Shown one piece after another: positions 1,323-3,980 of a DNA stretch of 64,000 bases (the first letter of the stretch is position 1; every line of letters starts with the position of its first letter). Source of the DNA: an uncultured virus (IMG/VR IMGVR_UViG_2713896813_000005) (taxonomy: Duplodnaviria > Heunggongvirae > Uroviricota > Caudoviricetes); the IMG/VR virus record IMGVR_UViG_2713896813_000005. One strand, written 5' to 3'. The translations under genes were made by a program, and so were the position numbers. A model generated the notes under the pieces. It saw only the letters and a list, made by a program, of their open reading frames with translations, had not been told where the DNA came from and did not search any database.

Positions 1323-2276
1323 TCATAATCTTCCAGCAGCAACTTTTTTTCGTACTTCATCTTTCCAATTGCCACTATGGATTATTCTATCGAAATTACT
1401 TCCTGCTCTTCCTGATAATAAGTCAATTCGAGATAGCTTGCTGATATCATCCCAGTTATCATAGAGGATATATATCGCATTACCATATTCTATGTTTTCA
1501 AATACAACCAAATCGTCCTCCAGCATAGCTCCAATATAATTACTGAACGTGCTGTTTCCTGTGACGATTTTTTTAGGTTCAAGACTCATGAAGAAGTCAT
1601 ATCTATTTTCAGCGACATTTTTCTTGTCGGAAGTGATATTTTTACCTCTAAAAATTCTTGCTAAAGTTTCTTCTTTACTACCTGGTGGAAATATTTCCCA
1701 TGAGACTATAAGTGTATCAGCATAAGTCGATATGGGTTTATCAGCATTCTCAATTCCACATTTACCAAGATTTTCTTGAAGAAGATTTAAATCAAATAAT
1801 AATTCATCATCAAACTTATTTGATTGTTTATCTAAAATTCTAGTTACTCTGAAGTTAAATATGAAATGGCCGTCCGAGGGCTGTTTGTGATTAATTTCAA
1901 TGGCTATGAGTGTTGGTGGTATAATGTCTCTGGGATATTTCTCGTAAGGTAATCTAACAGTATGTGTACCGTTAGAGCTATCGCCCCAGTTAGGTGACTC
2001 AATTTCAGTGTAATGAGTTTCTTTTGGGAGGTCTTTTCTGACAATTTCTTCACCAAAAACATTTTTAAGTGAATATTTACCCTGCAATGGATCTGGTATG
2101 ACCGACGTCACATAAGCATTAACACCATTATCAAAATATATTCCAAGGTGCTCTAATGCTCCACTTTTTAATTGGTTTTCCGTAAATGCAATAGAAGTGC
2201 CAGCAACAACTGTATTACCAAGCCTTCTTAACTTGCTATGAATATTTTTAGGTATAACACGTATATTCCTTTTCAT
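1323..2276 (-). CDS. Hypothetical protein (317 aa), gene 3 of the hotspot cassette; C-terminus resembles an EH-signature motif
   Basis: Start reassigned to ATG at 2276 (SD GAGGG, just after the upstream stop); C-terminal VVFEN..GNAIY...RIIH..W pattern. Confidence 0.75.
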   Translation of the reverse strand: MKRNIRVIPKNIHSKLRRLGNTVVAGTSIAFTENQLKSGALEHLGIYFDNGVNAYVTSVIPDPLQGKYSLKNVFGEEIVRKDLPKETHYTEIESPNWGDSSNGTHTVRLPYEKYPRDIIPPTLIAIEINHKQPSDGHFIFNFRVTRILDKQSNKFDDELLFDLNLLQENLGKCGIENADKPISTYADTLIVSWEIFPPGSKEETLARIFRGKNITSDKKNVAENRYDFFMSLEPKKIVTGNSTFSNYIGAMLEDDLVVFENIEYGNAIYILYDNWDDISKLSRIDLLSGRAGSNFDRIIHSGNWKDEVRKKVAAGRL

Positions 2277-2283
2277 TTTTCCC

Positions 2284-2817
2284 TCATACTTGATCATCAA
2301 TGTCTCTTTGCTCTCGCTTGTTATGTAAATCATTGATAAACATAACATTTGCAAGTATTACGCTAATTACTGCCTCAATCTGCATGTACGAAATAGCAAT
2401 AATTAATGCTAAAGATGTGTTTTTTATTACATCTTGGCTCTCTAAATAAAGATGACTTTTGAAAAACACTAGTTTAACTAAGTATACAACAAGTAAAGTA
2501 ATCATAACGAAAGATGATTTTAGAACACTTCCAACTATTGCTTCTAATCTTCTTGTATCTTCCAGTTGTTCGGTGAAATCAACGGCTTCTATAGTTTTGG
2601 GGTTCACAATACGCTGCAAAGCATTTGGGTAAAGAAACGCTAACCAAATTCCCATAATAGTAAAAACCATTCCAGAAACTGATACGAGAAGAGTGCAATA
2701 GTTGGCAAAATCGTTATACACATAGTTAATATCGGATGACGAAATAATCATCAGCGATATAATGAATATCGCCATGTATATCCATGTGTATTTGGCTATG
2801 CCTGCTATAGCTTTCAA
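2284..2817 (-). CDS. Hypothetical membrane protein (177 aa, about 4 TM), gene 2 of the hotspot cassette
   Basis: Four long hydrophobic segments; TTG start 3 nt after the upstream stop. Confidence 0.75.
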   Translation of the reverse strand: MKAIAGIAKYTWIYMAIFIISLMIISSSDINYVYNDFANYCTLLVSVSGMVFTIMGIWLAFLYPNALQRIVNPKTIEAVDFTEQLEDTRRLEAIVGSVLKSSFVMITLLVVYLVKLVFFKSHLYLESQDVIKNTSLALIIAISYMQIEAVISVILANVMFINDLHNKREQRDIDDQV

Positions 2818-2820
2818 TAT

Positions 2821-3900
2821 TCAATCCTCTCCAGATGCTTTCTTTATTCTTGGTTGAGATTGTAATGCTTTTAATTCTTTTAATATAGGGGAAATAAATT
2901 CTTTTCTTTTGTGTGATATTTGTTCGTAAATATATGCGGCGGAATATGTTGAATAGTCGTCAGAAGGGACATTGAGAATATCACGCATTCTATATTTATC
3001 CACCCAAGTTATACCCTTGTCTGTAGCAAATCCAACATTGTCCCAAAGACGTTTTTCTCTATCCTCAGCCGAATACTTTTCAATGATTTCTTGAACTTCA
3101 TTCAAGGATGGTTTTGCTTCTGCTTTTATTTCAATTTGTCTTGTTTTGGCATTTTTCTTTCCGGACACAAATGGAACGAGAGTGCTAAAGGTCTTTAACC
3201 AATCAGCTCGTGCATCATTTGGATTTATAATAATAGTTTCCCTGCGAACTATGTGTGTTATTTTTGGTATTAGTTTACCTAACTCAGTATGAGTGGTTTC
3301 TAAGCTTCTGAGCTTCATATCAAACCTGTACATATATTTATATAAGTCTTCGTCATCGGTATTAGATAGCCTTATATACCCTTTCTCGGTTTTATTTTTA
3401 ACCCTTTTGCTATGTTTAACTCTATTAGTAATAGATGAGTGTACATAGTCTTGAAATAGTTCAGAATCACAAACAGAATGGTCGAATTTAATGGATACTA
3501 TAGTTTCAAGTTCAGGTATAACCCAATAAAAGCATGGCCGACCCCAGATAACTTTTTTCCCTCTGTAGCTATTAGTATATTTAACCACCGATGAGCTTCC
3601 GATTTCACCGTCTTCACTAGCTCCTAATAAAGAGCCCGTACTATCAGTATCAGATTTCCATAACATGATTAAGAAATCACCAGTATTTTCATCCTTATAA
3701 ATATCCTTGCAATAACACTTTGATCTGTTTGGTTTTTCTTTTGGATCCCATGGTATCGTGAGTGCAAGAGATTTAGTTCCCACCCAATCCTGTATGAGGT
3801 CAAATGTTTCGCTAAGTTCTAAACCATAGGTATTGTCATCATTTACCTTGTATAAACCGCACTTATTAACCTTGAAGAAATTGAGATGCCCTACATTCAT
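2821..3900 (-). CDS. Hypothetical soluble protein (359 aa), gene 1 of the hotspot cassette
   Basis: Long AT-rich ORF with SD AAGGA upstream of ATG. Confidence 0.8.
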   Translation of the reverse strand: MNVGHLNFFKVNKCGLYKVNDDNTYGLELSETFDLIQDWVGTKSLALTIPWDPKEKPNRSKCYCKDIYKDENTGDFLIMLWKSDTDSTGSLLGASEDGEIGSSSVVKYTNSYRGKKVIWGRPCFYWVIPELETIVSIKFDHSVCDSELFQDYVHSSITNRVKHSKRVKNKTEKGYIRLSNTDDEDLYKYMYRFDMKLRSLETTHTELGKLIPKITHIVRRETIIINPNDARADWLKTFSTLVPFVSGKKNAKTRQIEIKAEAKPSLNEVQEIIEKYSAEDREKRLWDNVGFATDKGITWVDKYRMRDILNVPSDDYSTYSAAYIYEQISHKRKEFISPILKELKALQSQPRIKKASGED

Positions 3901-3950
3901 GCTCTTTCCTTAGCTTCTTATCTTGGGATATGTATCATGATCAAAAATTA

Positions 3951-3980
3951 AGCATAACCCCATTGACTTCGTGCGGGCAA
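3951..3980 (-). promoter_or_regulatory. Putative sigma70 promoter of the cargo operon
   Basis: TTGCCC-N18-TATGCT on the minus strand, about 50 nt upstream of the 3900 ATG. Confidence 0.55.

What the first reader, a model, noticed from the sequence alone, without database searches (positions are those of the whole stretch)
1323..3980. Unassigned three-gene operon in the P4 int-psu anti-phage hotspot: candidate defence system
Seen: three tightly coupled AT-rich genes (359 aa soluble, 177 aa with about 4 TM, 317 aa soluble; gaps of 3 and 7 nt) with their own sigma70-like promoter and terminator, between int and cos/psu. Established: this slot holds gop-beta-cII in P4 and is a hotspot of antiviral systems in P4-like satellites. 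Inference: a sensor plus membrane effector plus nucleic-acid-acting protein. I recognise no assigned domain in genes 1 and 2. The soluble-plus-small-TM pairing recalls Kiwa-type layouts, and the three-hypothetical layout recalls Rst_3HP, so it could be a relative of a known system.
Basis: partly seen in the sequence, partly recalled or inferred. Interest (0 to 1): 0.85.

Follow-up and report, generated by a model that had tools for sequence, protein, structure and literature searches.

The report
Rex-like defence pair plus unknown gene
The three genes are real cargo in the defence slot of a P4-like satellite, but the first two are an already catalogued Rex-like candidate anti-phage pair, and only the third gene, a widespread protein with no recognisable family or fold, remains unexplained.

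Summary
The three tightly spaced, AT-rich genes exist as described, between int and cos/psu of a P4-like satellite. They are not unassigned. Genes A (359 aa) and B (177 aa, four hydrophobic segments) match PADLOC candidate PDC-M18A/B over their full length. This is P4-hotspot "system #4" of Rousset et al. 2022, whose table also lists gene C as an "occasional" third protein. Their two-gene clone ("RexA + 4TM") gave no protection against eight phages.

Gene C (317 aa) behaves as a separate module:
- It belongs to a family of about 1,700 clusters at 50% identity, found in many phyla.
- None of 50 loci elsewhere has A or B nearby.
- It often sits beside LexA-like or CapH/CapP-type repressors and known defence genes.
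- It has no Pfam, PADLOC or PDB match, despite a confident model (pLDDT 91).

In E. coli, C and this A-B allele are always linked (7 of 7 genomes).

Verdict: a catalogued Rex-like pair stacked with an independent gene of unknown function. It is neither Kiwa nor Rst_3HP.

The parts
2821..3900 (-). Gene A, 359 aa soluble protein: PDC-M18A, with a RexA-like fold
2284..2817 (-). Gene B, 177 aa membrane protein with four hydrophobic segments: PDC-M18B, the presumed effector
   Evidence: ORF. PADLOC PDLC04500 3.3e-15 over residues 9-175. phrog_37654 5.1e-19. Hydropathy. It lies directly downstream of A in 17 of 17 viral-contig loci and in 2 of 2 proteobacterial genomes.
1323..2276 (-). Gene C, 317 aa soluble protein of a large uncharacterised family; the 'occasional protein 3' of Rousset system #4
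   Evidence: ORF; start. No hit in Pfam, NCBIfam, PADLOC or PHROGs. The family has 1,693 clusters at 50% identity with E<=1e-3. Model pLDDT 91 with no fold match. Rousset Table S1B.
1274..1300 (.). Terminator-like hairpin between the convergent int and gene C (11-bp stem, 5-nt loop, short T run)
   Evidence: Read by eye. Not called by the scan, because the tail has only 4 T.
3901..4100 (-). Upstream non-coding region that must hold the cassette's promoter (not located)
   Evidence: Sequence. No sigma70-like match on this strand.
4115..4133 (-). cos-like 19-mer of the P4-type satellite, marking the inner border of the cargo slot
   Evidence: By eye it is identical to the corresponding stretch in the Klebsiella P4-like clone, and 16 of 19 identical to that of P4, as printed in Rousset Table S2A. 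That this 19-mer is cos is recalled, not tested.
1..1266 (+). P4-type tyrosine integrase, outer border of the cargo slot
   Evidence: Pfam Arm-DNA-bind_3, Phage_int_M and Phage_integrase.
4308..4874 (-). psu (polarity suppression protein), a P4 core gene
   Evidence: Pfam Psu 6.7e-87.

Best explanation
The cassette is a stack of two modules that are read from one upstream region.

Module 1 is genes A and B. It is a Rex-type abortive-infection pair (PADLOC PDC-M18; Rousset P4 system #4). A is a cytoplasmic protein with the RexA/RdgC-like two-domain fold. A presumably senses an infection cue, either a phage DNA or protein-DNA intermediate or a phage protein. It then activates B, a four-helix inner-membrane protein. 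B would depolarise or permeabilise the membrane and stop growth of the infected cell.

Module 2 is gene C. It is a self-contained single-gene unit of unknown biochemistry. It was added to the A-B cassette only in one enterobacterial P4 lineage. Elsewhere it stands alone in prophages and defence islands, often directly under a DNA-damage-responsive repressor. It is most likely a separate stress- or infection-triggered defence or toxic effector gene.

What is shown: family membership of A and B; the RexA-like fold of A; strict A-B adjacency; independence of C from A-B outside Enterobacteria; purifying selection on all three genes.

What is inferred: sensing, membrane action, any antiviral phenotype, and the role of C.
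For: A-B identity:
- PADLOC PDC-M18A/B match over their full length.
- The same accessions appear in Rousset Table S1A/S1B as system #4, with the authors' note 'might be a distant homolog of RexAB'.
- Domainator Table 2 equates that system with PDC-M18.

Fold of A:
- Lambda RexA 8TWQ is the top match: Foldseek E 1.4e-3, prob 0.99, with RdgC at ranks 3 and 5.

B and the A-B pairing:
- B has four hydrophobic segments, like RexB.
- A-B adjacency holds in 17 of 17 loci and 2 of 2.

Independence of C:
- 0 of 50 genome loci with a C homologue have A or B within about 6 kb.
- 3 of 3 whole genomes that hold C lack A.
- Only 3 of 17 A-B viral loci have C, and these are the three that are 97-99% identical to the window.

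C as a regulated single-gene unit:
- A LexA-like S24 repressor lies directly upstream on the same strand in 6 of 50 loci.
- CapH/CapP-type or fused HTH+M78 regulators lie beside it in 7 of 50 loci.
- In L033, L036, L047 and L049, C has no same-strand neighbour within about 200 bp on the side away from the regulator.
- CapH/CapP are published regulators of immune operons (abstracts seen).
- 22 of 50 loci have at least one neighbour with a PADLOC hit <=1e-8. These include type III RM, HerA, dGTPase, a CBASS cyclase, AbiEi and PDC-M36A.
- A distant C homologue follows a Type ISP RM enzyme on a Lactococcus plasmid.

Selection: dN/dS is 0.06-0.12 for all three genes.
Against: - Nobody has shown protection. 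Rousset's two-gene clone pFR81 ('RexA + 4TM', a different allele) is listed among the systems with no detected activity against eight phages.
- No sequence-level link to RexA or RexB. hhalign gives 0.8% and 0.6% probability. Pfam RexA and DUF4747 hit none of 16 A-family members at E<=1.
- In E. coli, C and this A-B allele are perfectly linked: 7 of 7 complete genomes, in two sub-lineages with dS up to 0.5. The same 7-nt junction is kept. This fits an integrated three-gene system as well as it fits linkage.
- The association of C with defence genes and repressors rests on 50 loci, three neighbours each, with no background control.
- C's activity is wholly unknown.
Confidence: 0.55

Rival explanations
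1. One integrated three-component system. In the enterobacterial P4 lineage, C has been recruited as a working partner of the Rex-like pair, for example as an extra sensor, a modulator of A, or a second effector. All three genes would then be needed for protection.
For: - Linkage in complete E. coli genomes is perfect: the 7 genomes with C are the 7 with this A-B allele.
- In Rousset Table S1A, the three accessions occur 37, 47 and 41 times and sit together in the two rows I saw.
- A 7-nt junction with a ribosome-binding motif overlapping B's stop is kept in a variant with dS 0.28-0.52.
- The A-B allele that travels with C is only 37-46% identical to most other alleles.
- The two-gene allele without C showed no activity.
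Against: - C is absent from 14 of 17 A-B loci in viral contigs, including the closest outside relative at 56% identity (L056; identity).
- C is also absent from 2 of 2 proteobacterial genomes with A-B.
- A and B are absent from 50 of 50 C loci.
- Elsewhere C looks self-sufficient, as the sole gene beside a regulator.
Confidence: 0.2
2. Gene C is not antiviral. It would be a DNA-damage (SOS-type) response or mobile-element maintenance gene that merely rides in the hotspot. The A-B pair would be the only defence element.
For: - In six Patescibacteria-type loci, C is the gene directly after a lexA-like gene. In L015, recA lies next to that pair.
- CapH/CapP and ImmA/IrrE-type regulators respond to DNA damage in general (abstracts).
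Against: - The distribution is patchy, mobile-element-like and spread across phyla, with about 50% identity between phyla.
- It is carried on plasmids.
- It sits next to RM, CBASS, HerA, AbiE and other defence genes in 22 of 50 loci.
- Its position in the P4 hotspot matters, because most tested cargo there is defensive (PMC13586616, section 27 read).
Confidence: 0.15
3. The cassette is a relative of Kiwa (KwaA/KwaB) or of Rst_3HP.
For: Only the layout: a soluble protein plus a small TM protein, and three 'hypothetical' genes.
Against: - The PADLOC scan at E<=1 gave only PDC-M18 models, plus two hits at E about 0.7.
- There is no DUF4868 hit.
- In P4 hotspots, Kiwa is a separate cluster from PDC-M18.
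- 'hp + hp + hp' (pFR109) comes from the P2 locus, carries no TM note, and its three printed proteins look unrelated by eye.
Confidence: 0.02
4. The cassette has no defence function in E. coli: it is silent cargo, or works only against elements not yet tested.
For: - The two-gene version was inactive against eight phages.
- No promoter was located.
- It is rare: 7 of 5,426 complete E. coli genomes.
Against: - Purifying selection is strong on all three genes.
- Rex-type systems are known to have very narrow targets. Lambda Rex excludes T4 rII mutants (abstract of PMC11077077). Sbash 30/31 needs two specific phage genes (passages of PMC6426596).
- A Rex-type pair was validated in P. putida (PMC12894663).
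Confidence: 0.08

Closest known systems
PADLOC candidate PDC-M18 = P4-hotspot system #4 of Rousset et al. 2022 (clone pFR81 'RexA + 4TM')
   Same: - A and B match the PDC-M18A and PDC-M18B models over their full length.
- The near-identical E. coli locus carries the accessions listed for system #4.
- It occupies the same int-psu slot.
- Gene C is printed there as the 'occasional' protein 3.
   Different: - The window holds the three-gene allele. The tested clone was the two-gene allele from E. coli IAI75.
- The A proteins of most other alleles are only 37-46% identical to this one.
- No phenotype is known for either allele.
Lambda RexA/RexB and Rex-type pairs (mycobacteriophage Sbash gp30/31, Gordonia phage CarolAnn, P. 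putida RexABpp PP_5643/5644)
   Same: - It is followed directly by a small four-TM protein.
- The pair is carried by a temperate mobile element.
- The presumed mechanism is abortive infection through membrane damage (PMC12894663 abstract and section 8; PMC6426596 passages).
   Different: - There is no detectable sequence similarity to RexA or RexB.
- A is 359 aa against 279 aa for RexA.
- It is not placed downstream of a CI-type repressor.
- Rex-type pairs have no third gene like C.
- Whether RexABpp belongs to the PDC-M18 family was not tested, because its sequence was not at hand.
Single-gene immune operons regulated by CapH/CapP, or other DNA-damage-responsive repressors (Lau et al. 2022 preprint and later work; abstracts seen)
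   Same: C homologues sit as the only gene beside capH/capP-like pairs (L010, L033, L036, L047, L049) or directly after lexA-like genes.
   Different: - In the window, C has no such regulator and follows A-B instead.
- C's family is in none of the defence libraries searched.
- No phenotype is known.

Membership tests
PADLOC PDC-M18 | Protein A matches a PDC-M18A model over most of its length | tested here: met
   PDLC04494 4.7e-39: residues 5-336 of 359 against profile positions 6-335 of 339.
PADLOC PDC-M18 | Protein B matches a PDC-M18B model and lies next to A | tested here: met
   PDLC04500 3.3e-15, residues 9-175 of 177. The gap to A is 3 nt.
Rousset et al. 2022 P4 hotspot system #4 | Same proteins in the int-psu slot of a P4-like satellite | tested here: met
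   The 99.5% identical locus carries WP_001100521 and WP_032149796. Both are listed with WP_024191949 in Table S1A. Protein 3 in Table S1B is near-identical to gene C by eye.
Lambda RexAB family | Sequence membership in Pfam RexA (PF15969) or DUF4747 | tested here: not met
   No hit at E<=1 for the window's A or for any of 16 family members. hhalign against lambda RexA gives 0.8% probability.
Lambda RexAB family | RexA two-domain fold (split globular domain plus dimerisation domain, RdgC-like) | tested here: met
   [not shown]
Lambda RexAB family | Partner is a small four-TM membrane protein homologous to RexB | tested here: inconclusive
   B has four hydrophobic segments, as RexB does. hhalign against RexB gives 0.6% probability. 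So the topology is shared but no homology is detectable.
Lambda RexAB family | Exclusion phenotype through membrane depolarisation | not testable with these tools
   This needs infection assays. The two-gene allele was negative against 8 phages in Rousset Table S2B.
Kiwa | KwaB with DUF4868, together with a KwaA membrane protein | tested here: not met
   No DUF4868 hit at E<=1. No Kwa model appears among the PADLOC hits; that the library holds Kwa models is recalled. Kiwa is a separate P4 hotspot cluster.
Rst_3HP | Three soluble hypothetical proteins of the P2 hotspot clone pFR109 | tested here: not met
   Table S2A lists 'hp + hp + hp' at the P2 locus without a TM note, whereas here the middle protein has four TM segments. 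No PADLOC hit. I made no direct sequence comparison, because the printed sequences were not entered into tools.
Gene C: any described protein family or fold | A significant match in Pfam, NCBIfam, PADLOC, PHROGs, PDB sequences or PDB/BFVD structures | tested here: inconclusive
   [not shown]

The most novel reading that the evidence does not exclude
Gene C founds a new, very widespread single-gene immune or toxic-effector family:
- It has about 1,700 clusters at 50% identity, spread from Patescibacteria to Enterobacteria.
- Its two-domain fold is not matched in the PDB by the searches run here.
- Its expression is typically gated by DNA-damage-sensing repressors (LexA-like, CapH/CapP).

In P4 satellites it would be stacked on, or perhaps wired into, a Rex-like membrane abortive-infection pair.
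Probability: 0.35. Interest if true: 0.65.

Novelty: new member of a known kind. Interest (0 to 1): 0.35.

Why it matters
For genes A and B the result is mainly a correction. The 'unassigned' cassette is a catalogued candidate (PDC-M18, Rousset system #4). This report adds independent structural support that it is Rex-type.

Two things remain worth following.
1. The three-gene allele has never been tested, while the two-gene allele was inactive. A clone with single-gene deletions would show whether C makes the difference.
2. Gene C belongs to a large, cross-phylum family that no domain, defence or structure library recognises. It repeatedly sits under DNA-damage-responsive regulators in defence islands. 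If it protects on its own, it would be a new, common single-gene defence family with unknown chemistry.

Tried and rejected
- Kiwa and Rst_3HP were rejected.
- A nuclease or 'nucleic-acid-acting' role for C has no support from motifs, families or fold.
- Sequence-level RexA and RexB homology gave nothing by hhalign or Pfam.
- Fused or longer forms of C: none found. The tool itself calls this weak evidence.
- ESM Atlas gave no structure search for A or C, only feature leads. For A these were DUF4747 in 15% of one cluster and DUF6731 in 15% of another; for C nothing useful.
- The first genome-contig scan, with C as a single protein, found nothing. The alignment query then gave 50 loci.
- The genome search could not use the window's own assembly.
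- A class-level sample around G002 gave 0 of 401 for the A family. That group has very small genomes and there was no positive control, so the result says nothing.
- PDLC04494 rang in none of the 14 control genomes.
- A phylum-level sample of Pseudomonadota gave A in 2 of 401 genomes.
- The 2026 P4/P2 paper (PMC13586616) names new P4 systems: Crouga, Bandua, Aernus, Toga, Reve and Hailong. None fits this cassette by description (section 27 read). Its supplementary figures list PDC-M18 with the figures 156 and 11.
- No paper's main text in the library holds any of the four WP accessions. 'PDC-M18' occurs in one paper only.
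Full report
**1. What is in the sequence**

On the minus strand between the integrase gene (1-1266, +) and psu (4874-4308, -) lie three ORFs:
- A, 3900..2821, 359 aa.
- B, 2817..2284, 177 aa, with a TTG start.
- C, whose mechanical ORF runs from 2354.

C's real start is most likely the ATG at 2276, giving 317 aa. Homologues from other phyla begin at that position. A GAGGG motif lies just upstream and overlaps B's stop. The gaps are 3 and 7 nt.

GC is 0.32-0.35 across the cassette, against 0.48-0.62 on either side. 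B has four hydrophobic segments; A and C have none.

No minus-strand site lies upstream of A, and the region has 6 sites in all against 12.0 +/- 3.8 in shuffles. A terminator-like hairpin at 1274-1300 is visible by eye between the convergent int and C, but its T run is too short for the scan's rule.

The P4-like setting is solid:
- Pfam finds integrase, Psu (6.7e-87), Ogr/Delta, AlpA and a primase-helicase.
- Rfam finds the C4 antisense RNA, isrK and c4-a1b1.
- A 99.5% identical E. coli locus is annotated int / three hypotheticals / psu / delta / sid / primase.

**2. Genes A and B are already catalogued**

PADLOC models PDC-M18A and PDC-M18B match A (4.7e-39, residues 5-336) and B (3.3e-15, residues 9-175). 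C hits nothing. PHROGs has families of unknown function for A and B. Pfam and NCBIfam have nothing for any of the three.

The accessions of the near-identical E. coli locus, WP_001100521 and WP_032149796, are in Table S1A of Rousset et al. 2022 (PMC9122126; supplements read), together with WP_024191949. Table S1B describes this as system #4, with 169 occurrences in the P4 hotspot. It notes '4 TM in protein 2' and an 'occasional' protein 3 whose printed sequence is near-identical to gene C. [quoted passage not shown]

Table S2B lists the two-gene allele ('RexA + 4TM', pFR81, E. coli IAI75) among the additional systems tested. According to the methods text, these gave no detected activity against the panel of eight phages.

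Domainator (PMC11754643, Table 2 passage) equates Rousset #4 with PDC-M18. The supplementary figures of a 2026 study of P4/P2 hotspots (PMC13586616) list PDC-M18 with the figures 156 and 11. None of the new systems it names fits this cassette by description (section 27 read). Earlier notes of this scan reached the same identification on other DNA.

**3. Is A really Rex-like?**

At sequence level, no.
- hhalign of a 25-member A alignment against lambda RexA gives 0.8% probability.
- Pfam RexA and DUF4747 hit none of 16 family members at E<=1.
- The B family against RexB gives 0.6%.

At fold level, yes. The AlphaFold2 model of A (40-sequence alignment, pLDDT 80, pTM 0.75) has lambda RexA 8TWQ as its best match in three searches:
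- Foldseek: E 1.4e-3, prob 0.99, with RdgC, RexA's known structural relative, at ranks 3 and 5.

B follows A directly in 17 of 17 A-containing IMG/VR loci. It does so too in the 2 of 401 sampled Pseudomonadota genomes that hold A.

**4. Gene C is a different matter**

It belongs to a large family. The search of clusters at 90% identity gave 534 hits. In the library of clusters at 50% identity there are 1,693 with E<=1e-3, 851 with E<=1e-10 and 280 with E<=1e-30. Nearly all are about 320 aa.

Members occur in Patescibacteria, Acidobacteriota, Planctomycetota, Omnitrophota, Chloroflexota, Bacteroidota, Actinomycetota and Alpha- and Gammaproteobacteria. Distant ones are on plasmids of Lactococcus, Rhodococcus, Sinorhizobium and others.

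No library recognises it:
- 46 diverse members hit no Pfam or PADLOC family.
- Profiles hit no PDB sequence.
- No longer, fused forms were found (weak evidence).

Its model is confident (pLDDT 91, pTM 0.68). It shows a beta-rich N-terminal part and an alpha/beta C-terminal part. It has no convincing structural neighbour:
- Foldseek PDB and BFVD: nothing at E<=1e-3.

These values are below what the tool says unrelated models commonly reach.

**5. Does C belong to the A-B system?**

Outside one lineage, no.
- Of 50 genome loci with a C homologue, none has an A or B family member within about 6 kb (hmmsearch).
- Three whole genomes holding C lack A.
- Of 17 A-B loci in viral contigs, only the three that are 97-99% identical to the window carry C. 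The nearest outside relative (56% identity, L056) and the two proteobacterial genomes do not.

I examined C's neighbours elsewhere: two upstream ORFs and one downstream ORF per locus. That made 136 ORFs for Pfam, and 130 of them for PADLOC.
- A LexA-like S24 repressor lies directly upstream on the same strand in L004, L005, L007, L013, L014 and L015 (6 of 50).
- CapH/CapP-type or fused HTH+M78 regulators lie beside C in L010, L025, L033, L034, L036, L047 and L049 (7 of 50).
- At least one neighbour has a PADLOC hit <=1e-8 in 22 of 50 loci. These include type III RM, HerA, GajB-like helicases, dGTPase, a CBASS cyclase, AbiEi, PDC-M36A and PtuB-like proteins.
- Integrases or transposases appear in nine loci.

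In L033, L036, L047 and L049, C has no same-strand neighbour within about 200 bp on the side away from the regulator pair. This is the layout of operons that CapH/CapP switch on after DNA damage (abstracts). On a Lactococcus plasmid, a distant homologue follows a Type ISP restriction enzyme by 17 nt. There was no background control for these counts.

Inside Enterobacteria the picture is the opposite. The 7 of 5,426 complete E. coli genomes that hold C are exactly the 7 that hold this A-B allele. Another 30 genomes match only a 59-nt stretch of B, presumably the other allele. Between the window and strain MB50 the three genes keep the same junctions while dS reaches 0.28-0.52, and dN/dS is 0.058, 0.117 and 0.096. 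So all three genes are functional, and the trio has travelled together for some time.

**6. Reading**

The best-supported explanation (about 0.55) is a stack of two modules.
- Module 1 is a Rex-type abortive-infection pair. A senses; B is a four-helix membrane effector.
- Module 2 is an independent single gene, C, that was appended in one P4 lineage. Elsewhere it behaves as a self-contained unit, often gated by DNA damage, in defence islands and prophages.

Family membership, the fold of A, A-B adjacency, C's independence elsewhere and purifying selection are shown. Sensing, membrane action, any protection and C's chemistry are inferred.

The main rival (about 0.2) is that C has become a working third component in this lineage. 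That would also explain why the two-gene allele was inert. Other rivals are a non-antiviral, SOS-type role for C (about 0.15), no function in E. coli (about 0.08), and kinship with Kiwa or Rst_3HP (about 0.02). That kinship is rejected.

**7. Novelty and score**

As posed, the finding is largely explained. Genes A and B are a catalogued, still unproven Rex-like candidate, and the three-gene form is itself listed in a 2022 table. That makes it a member of a known kind, and interest is modest (0.35).

The open and more interesting piece is gene C: a very large, unannotated family with a confident but unmatched model and a recurring link to DNA-damage-responsive regulators. No paper in the searched library names it by accession. 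The supplement of PMC9122126 lists it only as 'hypothetical'.

Noticed in passing
window 11535-15050 (+): A 1,171-aa SF1 helicase plus PLD nuclease protein lies just beyond the satellite's primase gene. It matches PADLOC MkoC (Mokosh type II) over its full length (E 0, 1702 bits). This is a second defence gene next to the same element.
   Followed up: partly
window 15751-17552 (-): An IS21-type pair lies downstream of the Mokosh gene. The transposase carries rve and HTH domains, and the helper is IstB-like (7.7e-112).
   Followed up: no
window 6742-6982 (+): The P4 immunity RNAs are all above Rfam gathering scores: c4-a1b1 (6742-6794), isrK (6755-6832) and C4 antisense RNA (6895-6982). The satellite's immunity region therefore looks intact.
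   Followed up: no
window 53508-53726 (-): The gammaproteobacterial sRNA STnc100 matches at 74 bits.
   Followed up: no
window 37185-41899 (-): Large ORFs here carry an SLT transglycosylase domain (723 aa) and DUF3383 (494 aa, 8.3e-142). They suggest a further phage-like region in the window.
   Followed up: no
L015:5364-8045 and L013:5322-7695: In small-genome bacteria the C homologue sits in an apparent operon directly after a lexA-like gene. In L015 it is followed by a C5 DNA methylase, with recA divergent upstream. In L013 it is followed by a trypsin-like protease.
   Followed up: partly
L075 (Lactococcus cremoris SK11 plasmid 5) 4299-9910: A 303-aa distant homologue of gene C lies 17 nt downstream of a 1,560-aa Type ISP restriction-modification enzyme on a small dairy plasmid.
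   Followed up: partly
L048:2642-4653: A C homologue overlaps by 4 nt the start of a CBASS-type oligonucleotide cyclase (SMODS; PADLOC Cyclase 1.1e-128). An integrase lies upstream.
   Followed up: no
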